A model generated the notes under the pieces. That model made no database searches, was not told the DNA's origin, and saw only the letters and a list, made by a program, of their open reading frames with translations. Made by a program: the position numbers and the translations under genes. From Candidatus Saccharimonadota bacterium (lineage in GTDB: Bacteria > Patescibacteriota > Gracilibacteria > Absconditabacterales > Absconditicoccaceae), in contig CP006913.1 in assembly GCA_000503875.1 (NCBI GenBank), positions 270,001 to 302,000 of the forward strand: a stretch of DNA of 32,000 bases, written 5' to 3'. Positions 1,101 through 28,269 of the stretch are shown here, one piece after another; the stretch's first letter is position 1, and every line of letters starts with the position of its first letter.

Positions 1101-3140
1101 CTATTTTACATCAGTAGTAATAAATTCTTTCTCTGTTGGAGAAGCCAATACTTTGACCCCTACGTGCTGTTGCCCCGCAAAAATGAGCCCTTCTCCAACT
1201 CCACAAGATACCAACCTTCTTTGCTCTGCCTCAGAGAGTCCAAGCAGATCATTGAGCGCTTTGATAGAAGTGGTAGATTGTTTAAGCAATATTTGAAGAG
1301 ACGAGTTAGAAAGAATAGGTTTTCCATACTTACTTCTTACGAAGTCTTCAATATCTTGAGAGATGGTAGTAATTCCAAGTCCATATTTTCTGGCTCTTTT
1401 GATAAGTCCAAATAAGAATTCTGCAGAAGTTTCATGTTGAAGCATAATCCAGGCTTCATCACAGATAAGTAATCTTTTCTTTTTCTGTGATCTTACTTTG
1501 GTCCAGATAAAGTTCAAAACGTTAAACATCGCAGGTGTTTTTAATACTTCTTCAAGATCTCTAATACTAAAAACGGTCATTGCATTGTTGATATCTACGT
1601 TAGTATAGTTATTGAAAAGTTTTCCAAAGGTTCCAGTAACATATTTACTAAGTTTAAGCGCTATTTTTTCTCCACCATCCATACCATCCAAAACATTCAT
1701 CAAATCTTCCATCAATGGTGGTTGTTTGCCTTCATATGACATAGCTTCCAAAGAAAATCCTTTTAAGCTATAGGTACTTTGAATTGCTTTATCCAGAAGA
1801 GCTTCTTCTTCAGTACTTAAATCTCCAATCAATAATTTCACTAATCCAATAAGTGCCATAATCTGACTTCTCAAAAGATCTCCTTTCCCGTAATCAACAT
1901 CACTAATTTGTGGAGGAATATCAAATGGATTAATAAATTGTTGTGAACTTGTAGCAATATTTACATAGGTACCACCTACTTTTTGAGCAAGCGTTTTGTA
2001 TTCATTTTCAGGATCGATAATGATAATATCAATTCCATTGAGCAAATATCTAAGTACTTCAAGTTTAACAGTAAATGATTTTCCGGCTCCAGATGTCGCT
2101 AGTACACAACTGTTCATATTTGGAAGTTTGGAATTGAATCTATCGAAAATCACTAATCATCCTGTATGTTGATTAACTCCATATAGGATTCCTGTTTCAC
2201 TAATCATATCATTGGAAATAAAGGGAAAACTTCCCGCCAATGACGAAGTAACACTACTTCTCGTAATCCCTAGATCATCGATACACAAAGGAAGTGTACT
2301 GGTAAATCCTTCATCCATTCTTTGAGTAGCATTTTTCATTCTGATTCCATATCAAGAAATTTTTTGTTCAAGTTTCTTACCTTCTTCCTTGAGTTTATCT
2401 TCACTTTCTTCGTAAACATTCATATAATATCCTGTTTCAAAATATCTTTCTTCACGAGTTGTTAACTTTTCTCTAATCATTTCTACATCCTTGTATTGTT
2501 GTTCAACTTCAGTATCCAACGTGATTCCTTTTGACATAGCATCTTTAATTTCTGCTTTAAGTTGAGTTGCTCTAGTTTTGAGCATAGATTGGATTGCGGC
2601 ATCATCTTCTGGATAAATAAACCAGCTCATATCCCATTTTGCATGAAAACTCAAAATATCTCTTGTCCATAGAGCATCTATGTATGAAGGATAACTTTGA
2701 ACATAATAACTTTTTCCCAAAAGCCCAGAAGTATTGAAATGATTTGGCTTATGTTCCCAAAATGAAGGTGCTATGTGTGATTTATAATCATTGATGACAG
2801 AAATATATTGTTTTTCTACTTCAACGATATATTGTCTAAGTTTGCTAGTAAGCTTGCTATCGCTATATTGATCATCAGGTAATTCCAAAAGATATTTGAT
2901 TTGTTCTTTGAGATCTTTGTCTTTGATCATACTATTTTCTGGTATAACAGCTCATGGAGTACCATCTTTCTTTGGGGTTGCAGCACTAGGAAAAAGTGTT
3001 CAGAACAAACTATCAAAAATTCATCAAACACCTCCAGTTTTTTTTGGAGCATCTATTTGAAGAATATAGTTTGGCTTTCCTCAATTGGGAAGCTGTTGGC
3101 TATAATTAGTATCAAAAATAACGTCTTGAATAGTATTCAT
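1101..3140 (-). CDS. VirB4/TraC-like type IV secretion or conjugation AAA ATPase (~679 aa)
   Basis: Track ORFs 1101..2153, 2157..2339 and 2352..2930 share one frame and are joined by TGA at 2157-2159 and 2352-2354. The frame continues upstream through further TGAs to ATG at 3138-3140. Walker A is 'ATSGAGKSF', followed by 'IIIIDPENEY' and the Walker B-like 'RLLICDEAW', a layout typical of VirB4/DUF87 ATPases. Stop is TAG at 1101-1103. Confidence 0.75.
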
Positions 3141-3286
3141 AGTAGTACAAAAGGATATATAAAAGTACTCCTTTTAAGTATATCCAAAAACACAAAAGAA
3201 CAAAACTGTTGAGGCTTTTCTTATAACTTTGGTTTGACTTTGTTGTGTATTTATATATAAAATAGGAAACCTAAAAAAAACAATAT

Positions 3287-7944: not shown

Positions 7945-9327
<1,383 letters not shown>

Positions 9328-9337
9328 GGGAAGTAAG

Positions 9338-9384
9338 TAATAAATTAAATATTTTTTTATAGTGATCAACTAACAATTTCTGAT
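9338..9384. repeat. 47-bp direct repeat, copy A (non-coding duplicate of the atpG 3' end plus downstream sequence)
   Basis: Identical base for base to 10738-10784: 'taataaattaaatatttttttatagtgatcaactaacaatttctgat'. Flanking bases differ on both sides. The offset is exactly 1400 bp. Confidence 0.9.
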
Positions 9385-9398
9385 TATAATTGTTCTGA

Positions 9399-10727
9399 TT
9401 AATATGTTTGCGCACCTCACCATTCAATTGCTGAGAATCATGTTCTTGTGAATGATTGTAATTTTTGTTCTGGTATAGAAATAGGTTTATCTAGTCATTT
9501 GAATACCATAAATATTCTTTGTATACTATCTGGTTTTGGTATTATTGTTAGTTGAGCTTGGTCTGTATAGTCTTTTCCAGCGAATCTAATTGCAGCATAT
9601 GGATGCTGATTCATAAGTGGTAATCGATATACAATAAATTCATTATATTCATTAGGTGTTAAACCTAAATATGTAAGTTTTTCTTTGAGAAATGATGTAT
9701 AGTTCTTTTTTTCAATAACAAATCATTCATTTATACTCCATGGTTTCATTTTTTTTGCTTCCCAAAATATATATGAATATTTATTATCATCAGCTTTATT
9801 TATTAGTTCTCCATCTGGATTTGCAATTACATTTCGTGTATTGTTTTCTCAAATTTCAGGATATGTTGTGGAAAAAATTCATTTAAGATTTATTTTTACA
9901 CTTACTGCTGTAGGTTTTGTTGGATAGAGATATATTACAGGTTTTTCACCATAACCATCAGCTGTTTCGAATGTCGATAATAATGAACTACTTATAGATT
10001 TGATTTTTCAATCAACAATTTGTTTTGTTATTCAATATGTTTCATTATGTACCATATCTCATAAATATGATGTAATAATTACTCCAAAATAGTATGTGTT
10101 ATTTCATTTGTATGTATATTTATATTTCACTTCTCATCTTTCTGTTCATATCCAATTCCAGTATCCTGAATATGTTTTTGAATATCGGTTTGCATCTCTT
10201 TTTGATCCTGTTGTTAAAGAGAGAGCATAATCATATTTTTTATCATTAACTGCTCAATAATATTCATTTATTAGATCAATATTTTTGATATGATTAATTA
10301 CTTCTTGATCACTTAATTTCATATCTTGTAGAACTTTATTCATAAGCTCTGTATTTCCAAAAACACTATTATCATTATTATAATAATGATTTTTATAATC
10401 CCATACATTATAATAATAAATAGAAATTAATCTGGCTACATTTTTACTAACTCATCAGAAAAAGTTATTATAGTCTATACATCCTGCACCATCACATTCC
10501 AAGTTGGTATCAATTGTTGGTTTTGTATCTGTTTCTGCAGGAACAGACTTACTTTCCATAGTTTCTGTTGTATTTATTCCTTCAAGGGGTATTGAAGTAA
10601 TTGCTGGTATACCTACTAATTCTGGAGAATTATTTATTGCTGTATTATCAATTATTGGTTGTTTTTCTTGTACAGAACATCCAGTTAGAACTAACAATGG
10701 TATTATAGCAAATAAAATCTTTTTCAT
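9399..10727 (-). CDS. lipoprotein of unknown function (442 aa), inserted between atpG and atpD
   Basis: Track ORF 10455..10727 gives the signal peptide plus lipobox ('MKKILFAIIPLLVLTGC'). My hand translation continues in frame through about 15 TGA codons to TAA at 9399-9401. No standard-code ORF of 60 aa or more exists there, as expected for a TGA-rich gene. Confidence 0.65.
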
Positions 10728-10737
10728 TTGAGCAGAT

Positions 10738-10784
10738 TAATAAATTAAATATTTTTTTATAGTGATCAACTAACAATTTCTGAT
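10738..10784. repeat. 47-bp direct repeat, copy B (overlaps the last 9 codons and stop of atpG)
   Basis: Identical to 9338-9384. It covers the atpG 3' end (10757-10784) and the 19 nt downstream. Confidence 0.9.
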
Positions 10785-11659
10785 ATTTCTTGGGTAATTT
10801 TTTGTTGACGAGTTTTATTATACACGGTCTGTAATCCACTTACGATTTCACCACAATTATCTTTGGCATTTTTCATAGCGAGCATTCTTGAAGCTTGTTC
10901 TGATGTCTTATTATTCAATACCGCGTAATAAACGATATGATGCACAATATCTTCAATTAATGATTTTGCATATGTTTTTGGATCTGGTTCTAGTAATAGA
11001 TTGTTATTTGGTACCAAAGCAATATTATCTAACTTTTTATCTATATTTTCCAAGAACGCATCGAAACTTTCTTGATCAAGTGGATAGAGTTTAAATCTCA
11101 AAGGCACCTGCATTACTACATTCTTGAAGTAGTTGAAATAGATTTTGATCTTGGCATAACGATTTTCTTTGATTGCTTGTTTGATATAGACGAAGACGCT
11201 ATTCAAATCATTTTCTACAAAGTTGTCTTTGATATGACAGGTTCCTACGACATTCCATCCTGCTCCCACAAAAAAATCTAATCATTTTTTTCCGATAACA
11301 AAGATATCTACGTTTTCTTTTGCTTCTTTGATAGTTCCATATTTCTCTTGAAGATGCTTAATAAGTTTGCTATTGAGTGATCCACATAATCATTTATCCG
11401 TAGTTACCAAAATAATCAATCTTCTTCCAAAACTATTCTTTGTATCTTTGTTTGTTTGGTTATTTTCATCGAAAATATCTATATGATCTTTGATGGCATA
11501 TAAAACCCCCAAAAACTGCTTCATAAACCCTCTAAAATTGAGTGTTCTCTGTTTTAGTTTTTGTAATTTAACGGTAGAAACTATCTCCAAAGCCTTAATG
11601 ATCTTTTGAAGATTATGTACTGATTTTATTTTGGTCTTGATAAGCTTCGTATTAGCCAT
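10757..11659 (-). CDS. atpG: F1 ATP synthase gamma subunit (300 aa)
   Basis: 'MANTKLIKTKIKSVHNLQKIIKALEIVSTVKL...' continues through TGA at 11390-11392 into track ORF 10766..11269. It ends '...YNKTRQQKITQEISEIVS[TGA]SL' with TAA at 10757-10759. Confidence 0.9.
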
Positions 11660-12107
11660 GTCTCATCTTTTTTAGATGTAAATCAGCGGTAATTTTTTGT
11701 AATGACAAATAGGACTTTTCGATACTATCTATATCTCCTTGGAGTTTAATTTCTTTGATATCTCTTTCTAATTGTTCTTTCATTTTTTCTAGTTCTTGTA
11801 TATCAGATATAGGATTTGCAGTTGCTCCCGAGACAAAAACAATAAGATTCTCACCATCTACATAAAGAGATCAGTTGCCTATTGATAGATGAATTTCATC
11901 CTCTTTAAACAAAAAATCCGTACCTTCTATAAAAGTATTTCCTTGTTTATCTTTTGGTAAGAAACTCAAAATTCCTGGTTTCACGATACTTCCCAAAGGA
12001 ATATGATTTGGTAATACGGTAATTACTCCAGCTTCCGTAGGGATGGTCGTTTTTATTACCTCTCAGTGGAAAATTGTTTCTTGCGGTGAAATTAAAGTTA
12101 GCTGCAT
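11652..12107 (-). CDS. atpC: F1 ATP synthase epsilon subunit (151 aa)
   Basis: Hand translation reads 'MQLTLISPQETIFH[TGA]EVIKTTIPTEAGVITVLPNHIPLGSIVKPGILSF...HLSIGN[TGA]SLYVDGENLIVFVSGA...'. This matches the epsilon beta-sandwich plus helical tail. It is absent from the track because of TGA codons. Its 3' end overlaps the atpG start by 8 nt. Confidence 0.8.
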
Positions 12108-12129
12108 GTAGTATATATAAAACTAAAAT

Positions 12130-13638
12130 CTATTTCACTTCTATTTCTTCCACAACAATTGTAATTAATTCTTTGATTCACAATTCTATTTCGTCATCTA
12201 AAGATTGCTTCTTGATAATATTCTGATTTAATTTTTTGTGGGTTGTATCTAGTTTATTATATAAGTTTTTTTCAAATTCCAATATTTTATCCAACGGCAA
12301 GGTATCCATATATCAGTTGATACCAGCATATACTAATACTACTTGCTTATTGAATGGAATAGGGGAGTTATTGCTTTGTTTAAGCATTTCTACAAGCCTC
12401 TTTCCTTTTTCGATTTTATTTTGAGTTGAAATGTCTAGGTCTGAAGCGAATTGTGCGAAACTAGCCAACTCTCTAAAGGTTGCTAATTCTAGTCTAAGTT
12501 TACCAGCAATTTTTTTCATGATTTTGGTCTGGGCAGATCATCCTACACGAGAAACAGAGAGTCCTACATTGATTGCAGGTCTGATTCATGAGTTGAAAAG
12601 ATCAGTTTCTAAGAATATTTGTCCGTCTGTGATAGAAATTACATTGGTTGGAATATATGCGGAAACGTCAGAATCCAAAGTTTCAATAATAGGGAGAGCG
12701 GTCAAACTTCCTCCACCATGTTCATCGCTAAGTCTTGCAGCTCTTTCCAAAAGTTTGGAATGCAAGTAAAATACATCACCAGGATAGGCTTCTCTTCCAG
12801 GAGGTCTTCTCAAAAGGAGGGAAACTTCTCTATAAGCAACGGCATGTTTCGTCAAATCATCATAGATGATCAACGCATCTTTTCCATGTTCCATAAAATA
12901 TTCTCCTAAAGCACATCCTACGTAGGGAGCAATATATTGCAATACGGATGGTGCATTAGCCGGAGCATTAACAACGATGGTGTAATCCATAGCTCATTTC
13001 TCTTTGAGCATTTCTACGATTCTTCTTACTTTACTATCTTTTTGCCCAATCGCAACATAGATACAGATCACATCTTTTCCTTTTTGGTGGATGATAGTAT
13101 CCGTTGCAATAGTGGTTTTACCTGTTTGTCTATTTCAGATAATCAATTCTCTCTGTCCTCTTCCAATTGGCACCATGGTATCAATTGCTTTAATACCAGT
13201 TTCCAAAGGTGTATTTACTGATTTTCTAGCAATAACTCCAGGAGCAATTTTTTCAACGGGAGAAAATGCTGTTGGCGTGATTTTACCTTCATCATCTATA
13301 GGATTACCCAAGGCATCCAAGACTCTACCCAAATATTCTTCTCCTACTCAGACGTCCAAGACTTTTCCCATAGCTTTTACTACACTTCCTTGTCAGAGAC
13401 CTTCTTGGCTTCCCAATACGAGAATTCCGACAGTATCTGGAGAAAGATCGAGCACAAGCCCCTTAACTCCATTTTCAAATTCTACAATTTCAGAAAACAT
13501 CGCATTGTCCAAACCAATCACGGTTGCGACACCATCTTTCAATTCTAGGATTTCTCCTTTTTTGGAAAACTGTTGTTTGAGGTCTTTACCATCCAAGTCT
13601 TTTTCAATTTTTTTGAGAATATCCGATACGAGATCCAT
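12130..13638 (-). CDS. atpA: F1 ATP synthase alpha subunit (502 aa)
   Basis: Track ORFs 13393..13638, 13135..13332, 12586..12990 and 12313..12519 share one frame and are joined by TGA. It contains 'GRGQRELII[TGA]NRQTGKT' and '[28 protein letters not shown]'. Stop is TAG at 12130-12132. Confidence 0.95.
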
Positions 13639-13674
13639 AGGTAATTAAGATAATGATATAAATTTACTATAATA

Positions 13675-14133
13675 TTATTTCAATAAAATATCTAAATCTG
13701 AATCTAAATTTCTTTTGTATTGATAACCATTTCCTTTGATTGTTATCCCTAAGTGGAAACACTCATCATTTTGCAAACTATATGCTTTAAATTCTTTTTT
13801 GAGCACAGCATCTACTTTACTATGAATATCTTTTTGAGCAGAGAGAGGAGCTTGTACGGTAAATTGTATTTCTTTTTCTTGCTTTTGGAGTTCTTTGATC
13901 AAGATGTTCAAATGTTTTTTACTCCAAAACCCATATTTCCCCAAAAATGCAATAAAATCTCGCAATCCCTGATCATTAGTTTTGATACTATTTTTGTAGT
14001 CCGAAAGAAATATATTTCTATTATATTTTTTTACCAAGATATTCGCTATTTTTACATATTCAACAAAATGAGCGTCCTTTTGAAGACTTGGCAAATATTC
14101 TTGTATAAATGTTTTAAATGAGAGATTTGACAT
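13675..14133 (-). CDS. atpH: ATP synthase delta (OSCP) subunit, short form (152 aa)
   Basis: Intact ORF positioned between atpF and atpA. The C-terminal 'GITIKGNGYQYKRNLDSDLDILL' resembles the delta C-terminal motif. Confidence 0.65.
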   Translation of the reverse strand: MSNLSFKTFIQEYLPSLQKDAHFVEYVKIANILVKKYNRNIFLSDYKNSIKTNDQGLRDFIAFLGKYGFWSKKHLNILIKELQKQEKEIQFTVQAPLSAQKDIHSKVDAVLKKEFKAYSLQNDECFHLGITIKGNGYQYKRNLDSDLDILLK

Positions 14134-14141
14134 GAGGGATA

Positions 14142-14633
14142 TTATTTTTTTAAATCACTAATCAATGTATCCAGGTATTTATCTTGCAACTTTTCATCGC
14201 TTCACAAAATCTTTTTAACAAGCATTTTACTAGTTCTTTTTAAAGAATCAGTCCAATTATTGGTTAGTGATTCTTCAAGCTTTTTAGCTTCTTTCTCTGC
14301 TTGTAAAAGAATAGCTTTTGCTTTTTGTTCTCATTCTTTTAAAATAGTTTTACTATGTTCTTTGGCAAGAGTTTCTCCTTCATAAAGAATAGATTCAGAG
14401 TGTTTTTTTGCATGAGAGATGATATCTTCAGCTTCTATTTTTGCTTTATCCAAAATCTCTAGGTATTCAACATCAGCATTTTTTAATTTTTTTACCAAAT
14501 TTCTTCTTTCTTCGATGGAAGTAGATATAGTATCTCATAAAAATCTTTTAAAGATCCAAAAAAGCAATAGAAAATTGAAAATCTGAGCGATTACGGTAAA
14601 CAAATCTAATCCTATTGATTCTAGAAATGACAT
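14142..14633 (-). CDS. atpF: Fo ATP synthase b subunit (163 aa)
   Basis: Hand translation reads 'MSFLESIGLDLFTVIAQIFNFLLLFWIFKRFL[TGA]DTIS...', followed by a long charged helix. This is an N-terminal TM segment plus coiled-coil stalk. Position in the operon supports the call. Confidence 0.75.
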
Positions 14634-14660
14634 AATTTTTTCATAAAACAAAGATAAAAT

Positions 14661-15104
14661 TTATCAAAGTATCTTAAAAGCAACGATAAGTGCATAAATA
14701 GCTGATGATTCAACTAAGGCAACAAACAATACCATAAATGTCATTATTTTATTCTTTGCTTCAGGATTTCTTTGTAGGGCATCAATAGCGGCAGCAACAA
14801 CCCATCATTCTCATAATGATACAGGAAGTCCAGCAATACCCATTACAAGTCCTGCAGAAAGAGCACTTGCTACACTGATAGCAGATCCTAGATCAATAAT
14901 TTTGAACGCAATAATCAATCCATAGATGGCTGCAGATTCAACTAAGGCAATACCCAAAACAGTAAATACCATAAGTGATCAACTAAGTTCTGGATTTTTT
15001 CCAAGAGCTTCAACTGATTTTTTGGATACAACTGCGTGTCCTAAAGAAACTCAGATAGCACATAGTCATAGTGCAATAGCTGCTCATAATACATGTAGTT
15101 CCAT
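14661..15104 (-). CDS. atpE: Fo ATP synthase c subunit, tandem-duplicated (two hairpins fused, 147 aa)
   Basis: Single frame translated by hand. The first half is '...AIALGLCAIGVSLGHAVVSKKSVEALGKNPE...GIALVESAAIYGLIIAFKII'. The second half is '...SAGLVMGIAGLPVSLGEGWVVAAAIDALQRNPE...FVALVESSAIYALIVAFKIL'. Several glycines of the Gly-rich helix 1 are TGA-encoded. Stop is TAA at 14661-14663. Confidence 0.85.
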
Positions 15105-15131
15105 AATTCTATAATTATTATATAAAAGATA

Positions 15132-15944
15132 TTACTCTTGTACTATCTTAACAAAGATAGCGGTAAGAAGGGATATTACAAATGCTTGAACGACAGCAAC
15201 CAATAGTCATTGAACGAGAAGAATTATTGGCAGAAGGAATGGGAAATCTACTTTTGCTATAAGTTGTGATAATCAATTTGTACCAGCCACTAACATTCAC
15301 AAAAGAATAGTTCATGCTAACATATTTCCCCATAATCTATGTGAGAGAGAAATAAGCTTTGCTAGATTTCCAATAATATCCAATATTCAAATAAACAATG
15401 ATATGATTATGTCGAAAAGTTTTACAACAACCTTCATAGGATAGTAAACAAACGGATTCATAGTTCATTTTTCTACGTCAATAATTTTTTTACCCGTTAT
15501 AGGAATATATTCATGAACAAAATGAATGAATCAATGTTTCTTTGCTTGCATAAAAAGTACAAATACAACAGAGAATATTGCTAATGCAACGTCAAAGTTT
15601 TTATCACTAGTAGGTATTGTTATATAATGTTCTAGTGTAGGTCGAGCTAATGCAAATGAATCAACAAACAATCCCATGAAATTTGAAATGAATACAACAA
15701 AAAACAAACTGACTATGGTTGATTTTACTCGTTTCTTTTCATGTTCTCATAAAATTTCTTCAAAAACTTTATATATTTCTTCATAGAGAAGTTCAAAAAT
15801 AATACTGATTTTACTTTTTTTCTTAAAATGAAATAATGCGATAAAAATACCTATAATAAAAATTTCTGCCAGTACTCAAATGTAGCTTGACCTTATAATA
15901 AAATCAAATCAGAAGATATGTAACGTAGGTAATATATGTTCCAT
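15132..15944 (-). CDS. atpB: Fo ATP synthase a subunit (270 aa)
   Basis: Starts 'MEHILPTLHIF...' and contains 'SLSHRLWGNMLA[TGA]TILL...' with the conserved stator Arg motif. It ends '...LLVAVVQAFVISLLTAIFVKIVQE'. It is the first gene of the operon. Stop is TAA at 15132-15134. Confidence 0.85.
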
Positions 15945-17723: not shown

Positions 17724-19808
17724 ATGCAAAAAATTTTGCTTCAGAATTCTTATTTCAATATTTTGGAAATGCTTGATCAACAGCCATGATCAGAGCAAAT
17801 GCTCAATGCATTAATCCAATTAGAATCAGATATTAAAGCTGGAATTTTTGATATATTACAAAATTACCAAAAGCAAAACAAAGAAATGGAAAATACAAAA
17901 ACATACCAAGCAATACATGGAACAGTACTTGCATTAAGAAATACGTTGGAAGCTAGAATTATGCAAATAGCAACTGGCGATAAAGTAAGTATTCATGATT
18001 TATTGAATCAATGTATTATCAATCTCAATAAAATATTGGAAAATCAAGAAAATATTGAAGATATATTAAAAAATATGAAAATTTATTTTAGAAAAGTAGA
18101 AGAAACTATTCTTCCGCCAGATGAACAACAAGTTCAGACAGGTTCTTGAAATTGATGATTTGAAAAGAAAGAATGATGTAATAAATTTGGTTCATTAATA
18201 ACATTGCTTAGAAAAAATGAAATATATACAGATGATTTGTTTGTGATTACTTGAGTAAATCAATTAAATCAAATGAGAGAAGAAACATATCTTTATATTC
18301 ACATCCCAAGAATAAATAAAACAATTCTGATTAATAATGGTTATGGAGAAAAAACATTCATTTATGATGGCTATATAGAAGTAGAATATTTTTTGAATAC
18401 TACAAAAAAATGAATCAAACAAAATGAAAATATTGTTAGCGTGAATTTTGACTATGAAGACAGTGCAAATTGGGAAACTAAGATGAGATATTATTTGTTT
18501 GAAAAAGGAAAAGAAAATAAAGATGGATGATCGGTTTGAAAAAAAGTAAATATAAAAGATTTTTTAAGAGTGCCAGAATGATGGTATACGAATAAATCAT
18601 TGGCTACTAATTTGAGCGTTGCACCAAATACAATAAAAAATATAGTTAAACTATATAGAGAAACAAATCCAGAATATTTAAAAAAATATTTAGATAATCA
18701 CAGTAATCTACGAGAATATTATGCGCCAGAATTGTGTAAAATTATAGAAGAAGAAATAAAAAATAGGTGAGAAGAATCTCCAGAATGATGGTTTACAAAT
18801 AATGCTTTAGCTGAAAAATTGGAAAAAAACAAAGATGCTATAAAAAAAATAGCAAAAAAATATATCGTAACAAATCCTGAACGATTCAAGGAATATATAA
18901 ATAAATTATGAAGAATAAGAGAATATTATCATCCAGAATTGTGTAAAATTATAGAAGAAGAAATAGAAAATAGATGAGAAAAAGCTCCAGAGTGATGGAA
19001 AAACAATAATAAATTAGCTAGTGATTTATGAGTAGATTTTGATAGTGTGAAAAAAATAGCTGAAAGTTATAGATGAAATAGTCTAGATTGGTTTGTATAT
19101 TACTTAGATAATATAAACAACTTACGCGAATACTATGCACCAGAGTTATGTAAGATTGTAGAAGAAGAAATAGAAATAAAAAATAGATGAGAAAAAGCTC
19201 CAGAGTGATGGAAAAACAATAATAAATTAAGATTAGAATTGACGGAATCTTTTTATGTAGTAAAAGATATTGCAAATAAATATAGAGAAACAAATCTATT
19301 GTGGTTTAAACAATATCTAGATAATCATAATAATTTACGAGAATATTATCATCCAGAGTTATGTGAGATAATAAGAAAGGAAGCGAAGAATAGAGGAGAA
19401 AAGTCACCAAAGTGATGGGAAACAAATAAATGATTAGCCGACAAAATAGGAACATCAGAACAATCTATAAAATTGGTAATAGAAAAATATAGAGAAAAAA
19501 ACACAGAACGATTTAAAGAATATTTAGATAAAAATAATAGATTACGAGAACATTATCATCCAGAATTATGTAAAATAGTAAAAAAAGAAATAGAAAATAG
19601 ATGAGAAAAATCACCAAAATGACGAAACACAAATAAATGATTAGCAAAAGAAATTGGTGTAGATCCCCTTACTATAAAAGGACGTACCGAGAAATATAGA
19701 GAAACAAATCCAGAACGATTTAAGGACTATTTAGATAAGATGAATAGAAAGACAATTCATTATAGTCCAGAATTCTGTGAAATAATTAAAAAAGAACTCC
19801 AAAAATAA
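17724..19808 (+). CDS. large lineage-specific protein (694 aa): ~280-aa N-terminal region plus six tandem ~70-aa repeats
   Basis: Track ORF 17799..18149 is only a fragment. Hand translation from ATG 17724 runs through more than 30 in-frame TGA codons to TAA at 19806-19808. The repeat consensus is 'PEGW.TN..LA..L......IK.I..KYRETNPEWFK.YLD..NNLREYY.PELC.II..EI.NRGEK'. Confidence 0.7.
18570..19808 (+). repeat. six in-frame tandem coding repeats, period about 210-216 nt
   Basis: Example: 'aatagatgagaaaaagctccagagtgatggaaaaacaataataaatta' recurs near 18969 and 19182. The motif 'ccagaattgtgtaaaattatagaagaagaaata' also recurs. Confidence 0.8.
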
Positions 19809-26538: not shown

Positions 26539-28269
26539 ATGTTATTTAGTGAATGTTGATTAAAACCAGGTTTGTTAAAATCTTTGGCTGCTATGGGATA
26601 TACCCAAGCTACACCAATCCAAGAGAAAGTAATGAAAATAGCGCTCACATGAGCAAATATTGTATGACAATCTCAAACAGGAACAGGAAAAACTGCGGCC
26701 TTTTTGCTTCCTATTCTCAATAAAATAGATACCAATAGAAAATCAGTGCAAGTATTAATTCTTGCTCCAACTAGAGAATTAGTAGTCCAAATTTGAGAAG
26801 AAATCAGAAATCTGACAAAATTTTACGGAGTGAGTTTTGCTTGTCTTTACGGAGGAGCAAGTCCTAACGTTCAAAAAGAAAAACTCAGAAGAAGCCCTGC
26901 AATTGTTATTGCAACTCCAGGAAGATTAATGGATTTTATGAATCAAAAAGTGATAGATGTGAGAACGGTTGATTATTTTATTCTCGACGAAGTTGATAGA
27001 ATGTTGGATATGGGATTTGTCCGCGATATCAAAAAAATTCGAGCTCAACTTCCATCAGTAAAGCAGACACTTACTTTTTCTGCTACTATGAACAATGATA
27101 TGAAGACTATTATCAAAGATCATATTTCTACCTACGAATTTATCAAAATAGGAGAGGAAGTGACGGTTGATAAAATTCATCACAGATATATTCCCATCGA
27201 ACACGAGCAAAAGCTTTTCAACGTGATTAAACTTATCGAAGCTCATCCAGATGATAGAATTATTATTTTTACGCATACCAAAAGAAATACAAAAACTATT
27301 CATCAAATTTTAATCTGAGATGGTTTCAACGCAGGATTGTTAAATGGGGATATGGCTCAAGGAAAAAGACAGTCAACCCTCAACGATTTTAAAATAAACA
27401 AAACACAAATACTGGTTACAACAGATGTTGCTGCCAGAGGACTAAATATGGAAAATGTAGGATTGGTTATCAACTTCGATGTGCCTGCTGATGCTAAGAG
27501 TTATATTCATAGAATTGGAAGAACAGGAAGAGCAGGAGCAGAAGGAAAAGCTATTATGTTAGTTTCTCCGCTTGAAAGACCTTTACTTCAAGATATAGAA
27601 AAAGTTCACAAAATCAGAATACAACAATCCGAACATATTGCACAAATAGATAGACAAGGATGATATGGAAATCTTCGTCTTGATAGATCAACTGACAAAA
27701 AAGGTGGGAAGAAAATGATGCCCAGAAAGCGCCTAAGTCCTACCCAAAAATATGGAAAGCTTCCCACATTCGAAGATCAAAAACCTATAAAAACAGAAAA
27801 TAATTTTCGCAGCAATCCAAACCATAAAAAACACGAACGTAGTTTATGAGCTCCCAACAGAGGAGTAGATTGATATAAATGATCAAAACCGGATAGCAGA
27901 CCAGAAGGAAGATCATTTGGAGCGAGACCAGATAACAGAGGACCACGCCCAGATAGCAGATGACCACGCCCAGAAGGGAAATCATATGGAGCGAGACCAG
28001 ACAGCAGACCATCAACAGGATGATATAAATGATCAAAACCAGATAGCAGATGACCAAGACCAGAAGGGAAATCATACGGAGCAAGACCAGATAGTAGACC
28101 ATCAACAGGATGATATAAATGATCAAAACCGGATAGCAGAGGACCACGCCCAGAAGGGAAATCATATGGAGCAAGACCAGATAGCAGAGGACCAAGATCA
28201 GAAGAAAAATCATACGGGGCAAAGCCACAGTGATCATTTAGAGGTGCAGGAAAACCAAGACACAGATAA
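26539..28269 (+). CDS. DEAD-box ATP-dependent RNA helicase with a repetitive basic Gly/Arg/Pro-rich C-terminal tail (576 aa)
   Basis: Contains 'GYTQATPIQ', motif I '[TGA][12 protein letters not shown]', 'PTRELVVQI', motif II '[11 protein letters not shown]', 'SAT' and motif VI '[10 protein letters not shown]'. Track ORFs 26830..27318 and 27337..27663 are fragments. The frame continues through the repeat region to TAA at 28267-28269. Confidence 0.9.
27868..28200 (+). repeat. in-frame tandem repeats encoding '[30 protein letters not shown]'-type units
   Basis: 'tgatataaatgatcaaaacc(g/a)gatagcaga' occurs at 27870, 28021 and 28111. 'ccagaagggaaatcata(t/c)gga' recurs three times. Confidence 0.85.

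What the first reader, a model, noticed from the sequence alone, without database searches (positions are those of the whole stretch)
9338..10784. 1.4-kb lipoprotein insertion splitting atpG from atpD, bounded by perfect 47-bp direct repeats that duplicate the atpG 3' end
9338-9384 and 10738-10784 are identical ('taataaattaaatatttttttatagtgatcaactaacaatttctgat'), exactly 1400 bp apart. The flanks diverge immediately on both sides.

Copy B contains the last 9 codons and stop of atpG plus 19 nt downstream. Copy A is a non-coding relic lying 10 nt upstream of the atpD start. Deleting one repeat plus the intervening DNA would recreate a conventional, tightly spaced atpG-atpD junction.

The intervening DNA carries a single gene, a 442-aa lipoprotein (lipobox 'LVLTGC'). 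It uses about 15 UGA-Gly codons, so it is native to, or long resident in, a table-25 lineage. It has no integrase, no transposase and no inverted repeats.

A 47-bp duplication is far longer than a transposon target-site duplication. It looks more like att-type or homology-mediated cassette integration. As a result, an unrelated surface lipoprotein is co-transcribed inside the ATP synthase operon.
Basis: seen in the sequence. Interest (0 to 1): 0.75.

Follow-up and report, generated by a model that had tools for sequence, protein, structure and literature searches.

The report
Lipoprotein gene inserted into ATP-synthase operon
One uncultured SR1 bacterium has gained a single surface-lipoprotein gene between two ATP-synthase genes, flanked by a perfect 47-base duplication; the insertion is real and absent from every relative examined, but it is a one-off event with no sign of a dedicated mobile-element mechanism.

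Summary
The 47-nt sequences at 9338-9384 and 10738-10784 are identical and 1400 nt apart. They bracket one 442-aa lipoprotein gene between atpG and atpD on the minus strand. The window is candidate division SR1 bacterium RAAC1_SR1_1, and UGA=Gly is confirmed.

The structure is not an assembly artefact. Two other assemblies are 100% identical through both repeats, and a k=31 Logan contig stops exactly at the repeat.

All 26 related SR1 loci that carry both genes lack the lipoprotein. Eight contigs from the closest relatives (AtpG 84-90% identical) have atpG-TAA, 27-29 nt, then the atpD ATG. Homologues of the lipoprotein in other code-25 bacteria lie outside atp operons.

The 10 nt between repeat copy B and the lipoprotein ATG match the native atpD leader of relative L039 at 9/10 positions. 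The lipoprotein ORF is therefore grafted onto the original atpD start region at an ATGAAA microhomology. atpD now has a second 47-nt copy plus a different 10-nt leader.

I found no integrase, transposase, inverted repeats, attC-like fold or second occurrence. The best reading is a single illegitimate duplication-insertion; att-type cassette integration is unproven. Interest is moderate.

The parts
10757..11659 (-). atpG (F1 gamma subunit, 300 aa). Its last 28 nt (1 nt, SEIVSGSL and TAA) lie inside repeat copy B.
   Evidence: Pfam PF00231, E=1.2e-68. tblastn matches to 24 SR1 loci.
10738..10784 (-). Repeat copy B (47 nt). It is the native 3' end of atpG plus the first 19 nt of the native atpG-atpD spacer.
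   Evidence: Identical to 9338-9384. Homologous to the same block in the relatives' empty sites.
10728..10737 (-). 10-nt leader B (gene strand ATCTGCTCAA). This is a native-type atpD leader that now precedes the lipoprotein ATG.
   Evidence: 9/10 identical to the atpD leader of L039 (ATCTGCCCAA), and similar to that of L030. Only 0.06% of window 10-mers score as well.
9399..10727 (-). Inserted gene: a 442-aa lipoprotein. It has a lipobox (LVLTGC), a disordered linker, a weak NTF2-like middle domain and a conserved C-terminal domain of about 180 aa with unknown function. Its start ATGAAA is shared with the atpD start.
   Evidence: Pfam LPAM_1 is the only family hit. The protein is P148_SR1C00001G0277; the best non-self homologue is 50% identical. 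AlphaFold gives pLDDT above 94 for residues 260-442. There is no convincing PDB or Pfam match.
9385..9398 (-). 14-nt 3' flank of the lipoprotein gene (gene strand TCAGAACAATTATA), of unknown origin.
   Evidence: Sequence read directly. No match in any fetched locus.
9338..9384 (-). Repeat copy A (47 nt). This is a non-coding duplicate of the atpG 3' end plus 19 nt of spacer, and it now forms part of the atpD upstream region.
   Evidence: It lies in frame after the lipoprotein stop, but behind two stop codons (TY* SEQL* SEIVSGSL*).
9328..9337 (-). 10-nt leader A (gene strand CTTACTTCCC) directly before the atpD ATG. It is not derived from leader B (3/10 identical), and its origin is unresolved.
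   Evidence: Its best match to any relative's leader is 6/10, which is not significant (P about 0.14).
7945..9327 (-). atpD (F1 beta subunit, 460 aa).
   Evidence: Pfam PF00006, PF02874 and PF22919. PDB 6q45_D, E=7e-189.
7945..15944 (-). The whole F1Fo operon, in the order a, c(double), b, delta, alpha, epsilon, gamma, [lipoprotein], beta.

Best explanation
This is a lineage-specific insertion of a single promoter-less, terminator-less gene into the 29-nt atpG-atpD spacer of the F1Fo ATP-synthase operon of SR1 bacterium RAAC1. The gene encodes a 442-aa code-25 lipoprotein of unknown function.

Shown:
- The ancestral state was atpG-TAA, 27-29 nt, then atpD.
- The block 'atpG 3' end + 19 nt + 10-nt leader + ATGAAA' upstream of the lipoprotein is that ancestral junction, still intact. 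The foreign ORF therefore begins at what used to be the atpD start codon, with ATGAAA as a shared microhomology.
- Downstream of the lipoprotein stop come 14 nt of unknown origin, a perfect second copy of the 47 nt, a different 10-nt leader, and then atpD.

Inferred:
- The insertion arose in one illegitimate, recombinase-independent event. A microhomology-mediated or template-switch type duplication-insertion is the likeliest kind. The left join used the ATGAAA microhomology. The right join was sealed with a copy templated from the adjacent 47 nt plus short filler.
- Only such an arrangement would be tolerated in this operon, because it keeps the AtpG C-terminus intact and places an AT-rich, unstructured native-like leader in front of both the new gene and atpD.
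- The lipoprotein is now transcribed with the operon and translated from the old atpD initiation region.
- The two 47-bp repeats make the insertion precisely reversible by homologous recombination.
For: - Empty sites occur in all 26 related loci with both genes. Sixteen of the 18 species-level loci have gaps of about 150 nt or less. All 8 contigs from the closest relatives (L030-L034, L037-L039; AtpG 84-90% identical under code 25) have 27-29-nt spacers followed by MKGKIISIKG.
- Leader B is 9/10 identical to the L039 leader, with P about 6e-4 to 2e-3.
- Lipoprotein homologues (about 45-54% identity) on L025, L026, L035 and L036 are not next to atp genes, and they also start with MK.
- No close paralogue from RAAC1 appears among the top 120 hits.
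- The insert has GC 0.272 and GC3 0.115, the lowest GC3 in the window, against atpG at 0.310/0.290 and atpD at 0.370/0.246. It still uses UGA for half of its Gly codons.
- The insert holds a single ORF with 10-nt and 14-nt flanks and no terminal inverted repeats.
- No integrase or transposase domains were found in the insert or in the window ORFs scanned.
- The 47-mer does not fold: MFE -0.6 kcal/mol, z=+1.5.
- No terminator-like site lies between atpG and atpD, and promoter-like sites are at background level.
- Independent assemblies carry the identical structure.
Against: - The mechanism is inferred from a single end product. The donor locus is unknown, so junction microhomologies other than ATGAAA cannot be seen.
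- The model does not explain where the 10-nt leader A or the 14-nt flank came from.
- A perfect 47/47 identity with sharp edges is also what recombination across a pre-existing repeat (a Campbell-type event) or gene conversion would leave.
- Transcription and translation of the lipoprotein were not measured.
- The remainder of the 1.18-Mb genome could not be searched for a recombinase, a second copy of the 47-mer or a source copy of the gene.
Confidence: 0.55

Rival explanations
1. Mobile ORF cassette. A 1400-bp circle made of the 47-mer, a leader, the lipoprotein ORF and the 14 nt integrated by a single crossover. The crossover was either homologous (47 bp exceeds the minimal processing segment for RecA) or catalysed in trans by a site-specific recombinase whose att site overlaps the atpG 3' end. 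The element would resemble cis-mobilisable elements that lack an integrase.
For: - The perfect direct repeats with sharp edges include the 3' end of a conserved gene, the classical form of an att site.
- The ORF has tight boundaries and no promoter, as in cassettes.
- The two copies are followed by different leaders. This would follow if the donor and recipient junctions were different alleles.
Against: - There is no integrase in the insert or the 32-kb window.
- The 47-mer has no structure and no attC core motifs (by eye).
- No second instance of the cassette or of the 47-mer was found anywhere searched: 26 related junctions, two JGI metagenome scans, IMG/VR, PLSDB and INPHARED.
- The circle would already need to carry the 47-mer, so this model does not explain the origin.
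- Sampled relatives differ from the 47-mer at one or more positions, yet the two copies here are identical.
Confidence: 0.22
2. An older insertion whose 47-nt repeats are kept identical by gene conversion, or because the 47-mer carries a signal needed upstream of both genes, such as a translation-initiation or coupling context for atpD.
For: - Both copies sit at exactly the same distance (10 nt) from an ATGAAA start.
- The identity ends exactly where flanking homology ends, as expected for conversion tracts.
- The nearest sampled relative is only about 83% identical in atpG DNA, so the age of the insertion is poorly bounded.
Against: - No promoter, terminator, Rfam family or fold was detected in the 47-mer.
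- 28 of the 47 nt are simply atpG coding sequence.
- Leader A differs from leader B at 7 of 10 positions, while leader B differs from the L039 leader at only 1 of 10. Simple divergence of two old copies does not fit this.
Confidence: 0.12
3. Ancient operon member: the lipoprotein belonged to the SR1 atp operon and was lost in the other lineages.
For: None beyond its same-strand, tightly packed position.
Against: - It is absent from all 26 related junctions across the phylum.
- Its homologues lie in non-atp contexts.
- The duplicated atpG end is a rearrangement scar.
Confidence: 0.02
4. Assembly or curation artefact: a collapsed or chimeric join at a short repeat.
For: The source is a curated genome closed from a metagenome.
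Against: - Two further assemblies are 100% identical through both repeats. One has contig names indicating k=127, which is longer than the repeat.
- A k=31 Logan contig from another run breaks exactly at the repeat.
Confidence: 0.02
5. Transposon or IS insertion with a target-site duplication.
For: Direct repeats flank the insert.
Against: - There is no transposase and there are no terminal inverted repeats.
- 47 bp far exceeds known bacterial target-site duplications (own knowledge).
- The native leader lies on the 'insert' side of copy B.
Confidence: 0.01

Closest known systems
Integrative elements and integrase-less cis-mobilisable elements (CIME-type) flanked by att repeats at the 3' end of a conserved gene (own knowledge)
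   Same: Perfect direct repeats bracket the extra DNA. The repeat contains the 3' end of a housekeeping gene, so that gene stays intact. The extra DNA carries no recombination gene.
   Different: The insert is only 1.35 kb and holds one ORF. No integrase was found anywhere in the window. There is no second occurrence of the element or its att site. The native atpD leader lies inside what would be the element, and the repeat shows no recombinase-type inverted core.
Integron gene cassettes
   Same: A promoter-less single ORF with minimal flanks, expressed from upstream transcription, and a repeat after the ORF.
   Different: The 47-mer is not an attC. It has no RYYYAAC/GTTRRRY cores and no folded bottom-strand structure (MFE -0.6 kcal/mol). 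No intI or attI is present. Part of the repeat is atpG coding sequence inherited vertically.
Duplication-insertion (join-point) rearrangements and microhomology-mediated template-switch insertions with templated filler (own knowledge of bacterial illegitimate recombination and recombineering 'Dup-In' products)
   Same: Foreign DNA sits at the join point of a short tandem duplication of the target. There is microhomology (ATGAAA) at one junction, and no enzyme is encoded.
   Different: The 10-nt leader A and the 14-nt flank are not accounted for. No experimental precedent is known to me in candidate-phyla bacteria.
Independent insertion at the same junction in another SR1 genome (L020, SRP284006_co1_571)
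   Same: One unrelated same-strand ORF (341 aa, no Pfam hit) lies between atpG and atpD.
   Different: It has no flanking direct repeat of 12 nt or more. It sits in the 5' part of the spacer, with its own 53-nt upstream and 35-nt downstream sequence. The native atpD leader is retained once.

Membership tests
Site-specific integrative element (att-flanked, including integrase-less CIME-like) | Tyrosine or serine recombinase encoded in the element or nearby | tested here: not met
   The insert holds one ORF whose only Pfam hit is LPAM_1. Gene calls and Pfam hits 10 kb either side of atpH, plus Pfam scans of five of the remaining large window ORFs, show no integrase or transposase. The rest of the genome was not searchable.
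Site-specific integrative element (att-flanked, including integrase-less CIME-like) | Identical direct repeats (attL/attR) at both ends that overlap the 3' end of the target gene | tested here: met
   A 47/47-nt repeat contains the last 28 nt of atpG.
Site-specific integrative element (att-flanked, including integrase-less CIME-like) | Recurrence: the same element or att site in other genomes or sites, or a detectable excised form | tested here: not met
   0 of 26 related junctions are occupied. There were 0 hits for 26-29-nt repeat patterns in JGI metagenomes and IMG/VR. There were no matches in plasmids or phages. The excised form is not testable without reads.
Integron gene cassette | attC site: imperfect palindrome with inverse-core and core motifs that folds as a single strand | tested here: not met
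   The 47-mer has MFE -0.6 kcal/mol and z=+1.5, and 194 of 200 shuffles fold at least as well. I saw no RYYYAAC...GTTRRRY pair in the sequence.
Integron gene cassette | intI integrase and attI/Pc platform upstream | tested here: not met
   Upstream lies the atp operon.
Transposon / insertion sequence | Transposase gene, terminal inverted repeats and a short target-site duplication | tested here: not met
   There is no transposase. The best inverted-repeat pairs involving the ends are 73-78% complementary, internal and non-terminal. The repeat is 47 nt.
Bacterial lipoprotein | N-terminal signal peptide ending in a lipobox [LVI][ASTVI][GAS]C | tested here: met
   The protein starts MKKILFAIIPLLVLTGC. 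Pfam LPAM_1 scores 22.6 bits against a cut-off of 20.
Bacterial lipoprotein | Lgt/LspA processing machinery present in the organism | not tested
F1Fo ATP-synthase operon (conserved member) | Gene present at this position in related operons | tested here: not met
   It is absent from all 26 SR1 loci that carry both atpG and atpD.

The most novel reading that the evidence does not exclude
The 1.4-kb unit is a minimal, enzyme-less ORF cassette. It moves between closely related SR1 populations, and switches on and off within them, by recombination across a 47-bp operon-junction repeat. In doing so it hijacks the translation start of an essential ATP-synthase gene. This would be a previously undescribed way for reduced-genome candidate-phyla bacteria to vary surface lipoproteins without transposases or integrases.
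Probability: 0.1. Interest if true: 0.7.

Novelty: new member of a known kind. Interest (0 to 1): 0.4.

Why it matters
This is an unusually clean case in which both the 'before' and 'after' states of a gene gain can be read base by base in a candidate-phyla bacterium with a recoded genetic code. A foreign surface-protein ORF was spliced onto the start codon of an essential operon gene, and that gene was re-equipped with a duplicated upstream region.

The case shows how a 1.2-Mb genome with little evident mobile-element machinery near this locus can still acquire and express new surface proteins. It also marks the atpG-atpD spacer as a tolerant insertion point in SR1, because a second, independent insertion is present in L020.

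If filled and empty alleles or circular forms were found in the Rifle read sets, it would become a tractable model for recombinase-independent cassette gain and loss. As it stands it is a single event, the protein's function is unknown and the mechanism is unproven.

Tried and rejected
- **Table 11 or table 4 reading.** Rejected. Treating UGA as a sense codon more than doubles the ORF content, and UGA aligns with conserved Gly.
- **Assembly artefact.** Rejected.
- **RNA element, terminator or promoter in the 47-mer.** Nothing was found. There are no tRNA genes in the window.
- **Other repeat-ORF-repeat structures.** None occur in the window or in 290 kb of SR1 loci.
- **Cassette on a phage or plasmid.** No hits in IMG/VR, INPHARED or PLSDB.
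- **Near-identical strains in JGI metagenomes, sought for empty or filled alleles.** Two pattern scans returned 0 hits.
- **Function of the lipoprotein.** Pfam, NCBIfam and a PDB sequence profile gave nothing useful. The only PHROGs hit is the signal peptide. Foldseek against the PDB gave only weak NTF2-like matches to the middle domain (E about 0.01-0.05) and nothing for the confident C-terminal domain.
- **Mosaic (recombinant) signal in atpG/atpD against six relatives.** There was no clear breakpoint.
- **Origin of leader A and the 14-nt flank.** No significant match was found in the window or in any locus.
- **Literature.** Kantor et al. 2013 (PMC3812714) describe the genome and its code but not this insertion. 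No paper links Absconditabacteria, ATP synthase and lipoprotein.
Full report
**1.

The 47-mer TAATAAATTAAATATTTTTTTATAGTGATCAACTAACAATTTCTGAT occurs at 9338-9384 and at 10738-10784. The two copies are exactly 1400 nt apart. Neither extends by a base, and no further copy exists in the window even at 8 mismatches. By my own arithmetic a chance pair of this length in 32 kb is expected about 1e-16 times. All other long repeats in the window are tandem repeats inside genes.

**2. Organism and genetic code**

The lipoprotein is 100% identical to P148_SR1C00001G0277 of candidate division SR1 bacterium RAAC1_SR1_1. That genome is a closed 1,177,760-bp genome from Rifle sediment columns, reported to read UGA as glycine (PMC3812714). 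I checked the code independently. Treating UGA as a sense codon raises the ORF content from 7,314 to 17,146 aa. Five of the six UGA codons in atpD align with Gly in the beta subunit of PDB 6q45, for example in FTQAGSEVSALLGR, and none aligns with Trp.

**3. Anatomy on the minus strand**

The operon runs atpB, a double-hairpin atpE, atpF, atpH, atpA, an epsilon-like gene, atpG, the lipoprotein and atpD. Read on the gene strand, the junction region is:

- atpG ... GAAAT
- [ATCAGAAATTGTTAGTTGATCACTA TAA AAAAATATTTAATTTATTA] (repeat copy B)
- ATCTGCTCAA (leader B)
- ATG AAA AAG ... lipoprotein ... TAT TAA
- TCAGAACAATTATA (14-nt flank)
- [the same 47 nt] (repeat copy A)
- CTTACTTCCC (leader A)
- ATG AAA GGA ... 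atpD

The repeat therefore holds 1 nt, 8 sense codons (SEIVSGSL), the atpG stop and 19 spacer nt. Both copies are followed by exactly 10 nt and then ATGAAA. The insert contains one ORF of 442 aa with 15 UGA codons. It has a lipobox (LVLTGC; Pfam LPAM_1) and no other family match.

**4. Not an artefact**

A look-up of the UGA-free AtpH protein returned three further contigs. L027 comes from GenBank assembly GCA_003543185. L028 comes from an ENA assembly of run SRR944699 whose contig names indicate k=127. Both are 100% identical to the window over 20,459 nt and contain both repeat copies. Logan contig L029, from run SRR6485897, is identical and ends 30 nt into copy B. That is what a k=31 graph does when a sequence has two left contexts.

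**5. It is an insertion**

- A scan of one genome per species gave 24 SR1/Absconditabacterales loci.
- In the 18 of those loci that carry both genes, atpD follows atpG. Sixteen have gaps of about 150 nt or less. L008 has a 314-nt GC-rich insert. L020 has an unrelated 341-aa ORF without flanking repeats.
- A protein search with AtpG found closer relatives. Under code 25 their AtpG is 84-90% identical and their AtpD N-terminal part 94-96% identical.
- Eight such contigs, representing five lineages (L030; L031; L032-L034; L037-L038; L039), all show atpG-TAA, 27-29 nt, then ATGAAAGGAAAA (MKGKIISIKG).
- None of these 26 loci contains the lipoprotein.
- The four closest lipoprotein homologues are about 45-54% identical under code 25 translation. 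In the database three of them show Trp where the RAAC1 protein has UGA-encoded Gly, as expected for a table-4 translation of code-25 genes. They lie on contigs without atp genes.
- Deleting one repeat plus the intervening DNA would give a 29-nt spacer, the same as in the relatives.

**6. The new point: the left junction is at the start codon**

The empty site of L039 reads TAA AATTATTTAATTTATTA ATCTGCCCAA ATGAAAGGA. The 10 nt in front of the RAAC1 lipoprotein (ATCTGCTCAA) match that native atpD leader at 9 of 10 positions. They also resemble the leader of L030 (TCTATCCCAA). Only 0.06% of all window 10-mers, and 0.18% of 10-mers upstream of any ATG, match one of the relatives' leaders that well.

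The whole block 'atpG end + 19 nt + leader B + ATGAAA' is about as similar to L039 as the surrounding genes are. It is therefore the vertically inherited junction. The foreign ORF starts at the former atpD start codon, and ATGAAA is shared by atpD (ATGAAAGGA) and by the lipoprotein (ATGAAAAAG). Its homologues start with MK as well.

The leader now in front of atpD (CTTACTTCCC) matches leader B at only 3 of 10 positions. Its best match to any relative is 6 of 10, which is not significant. Neither it nor the 14-nt flank occurs elsewhere in the fetched data.

It follows that a simple 47-bp target duplication around a foreign fragment, or a simple attL/attR pair, does not describe the structure.

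**7. Mechanism**

What the data exclude or fail to support:

- The insert has no transposase and no terminal inverted repeats.
- Neither the insert nor the window ORFs scanned carry an integrase domain.
- The 47-mer is unstructured (MFE -0.6 kcal/mol, z=+1.5). It has no Rfam match and no promoter- or terminator-like site above background.
- It is not found in JGI metagenomes, IMG/VR, plasmids or phages.
- A sliding-window comparison of atpG and atpD with six relatives gave no clear recombination breakpoint.

My best inference is one illegitimate, enzyme-independent duplication-insertion.

- The left join used the ATGAAA microhomology.
- The right join was sealed with a templated copy of the neighbouring 47 nt and a few filler bases.
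- Selection in this operon would allow only products that keep the AtpG C-terminus and give atpD an AT-rich, unstructured, native-like upstream region.

The main rival is integration of a 1.4-kb circle across the repeat, by homologous recombination or by a trans-acting recombinase. That fits the sharp, perfect repeats and the two different leaders. It presupposes, however, that the circle already carried the repeat, and it has no positive support. Gene conversion of an older duplication is a third possibility.

Whatever the origin, two 47-bp direct repeats 1.4 kb apart are a substrate for precise deletion (own knowledge of RecA-dependent recombination). The insertion is therefore potentially reversible.

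**8. Expression and function (inferred)**

The lipoprotein ATG lies 29 nt after the atpG stop, and the atpD ATG lies 71 nt after the lipoprotein stop. All three genes are on the same strand, with no terminator-like site between them. Co-transcription with the operon is therefore likely but unmeasured.

The gene has the lowest GC3 in the window (0.115). It still falls within the range of other resident genes and uses UGA for half of its Gly codons. It therefore comes from a code-25 genome, either this one or a related one.

AlphaFold with 69 homologues gave the following picture:

- a disordered N-terminal linker;
- a helical plus beta-sheet middle part, with only weak NTF2-like Foldseek matches (E about 0.01-0.05);
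- a very confident C-terminal domain (residues 260-442, pLDDT above 94).

The C-terminal domain is widespread in Patescibacteria and Firmicutes, where it is often fused to dockerin, SH3 or other extracellular modules. It has no Pfam, NCBIfam or PDB relative. Beyond being a probable cell-surface lipoprotein, its function is unknown.

**9. Comparison with known systems and verdict**

In form it resembles an att-flanked, integrase-less element or an integron cassette, but it fails the defining tests for both (see the membership table). It fits the generic class of duplication-insertion rearrangements.

It has not been described in the genome paper or elsewhere in the searched literature. I rate it as a new, well-documented member of a known kind of event. 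It is real, clean and instructive, but it is a single occurrence with an unresolved mechanism. Interest: 0.4.

Noticed in passing
window 11652-12107 (-), and L001-L020, L030-L032: The epsilon subunit gene lies between atpA and atpG and overlaps the atpG start. The SR1 operon order is therefore a-c-b-delta-alpha-epsilon-gamma-beta, instead of the usual order ending gamma-beta-epsilon. This is conserved in every related locus that carries these genes.
   Followed up: partly
window 14661-15104 (-); halves at 14671-14744 and 14899-14972: The c subunit is a tandem double hairpin of 147 aa, and its two halves are 73% identical in DNA. Relatives differ. L006, L010, L013, L016, L018, L031 and L032 also have the double form. 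L001, L002, L004, L007 and L030 have a single unit of about 71 aa.
   Followed up: partly
L020 6883-8027: Another SR1 genome (SRP284006_co1_571) has an unrelated 341-aa ORF with no Pfam hit inserted in the same atpG-atpD spacer, without flanking repeats. L008 has a 314-nt GC-rich insert there, and L004 has a hairpin-like element. The spacer appears to tolerate insertions.
   Followed up: partly
L017, L021, L022, L023, L024: These Absconditabacterales contigs carry an atpG homologue (37-48% identical) with no other atp gene detectable within 3-6 kb on either side.
   Followed up: no
window 1101-3173 (-): A 679-aa protein with a TraG/VirB4-type P-loop domain (PF19044, E=5.6e-27). It is a type-IV-secretion or DNA-transfer-like ATPase, about 5 kb beyond the end of the atp operon.
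   Followed up: no
window 18634-19803 (+) and 27871-28266 (+): There are long in-frame tandem repeats inside two genes. A 705-aa ORF has units of 207-213 nt. A 591-aa ORF with DEAD-box-helicase-like motifs (by eye) has 90-nt units in its C-terminal tail (repeat [16 protein letters not shown]...).
   Followed up: no
window 9338-9401 (-): After the lipoprotein stop, the relic of the AtpG C-terminus is in the same reading frame (TY* SEQL* SEIVSGSL*). The motif ATCAGAA occurs twice, 16 nt apart, at the right-hand junction. Its significance is unknown.
   Followed up: partly
window 9399-9947 (-), lipoprotein residues 260-442: A confidently folded extracellular domain of about 180 aa, with invariant motifs KPVIYLYP, EYNEF and EWGG. 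It is found in hundreds of Patescibacteria and Firmicutes proteins and has no Pfam, NCBIfam or PDB counterpart. It is a candidate for a new domain family.
   Followed up: partly
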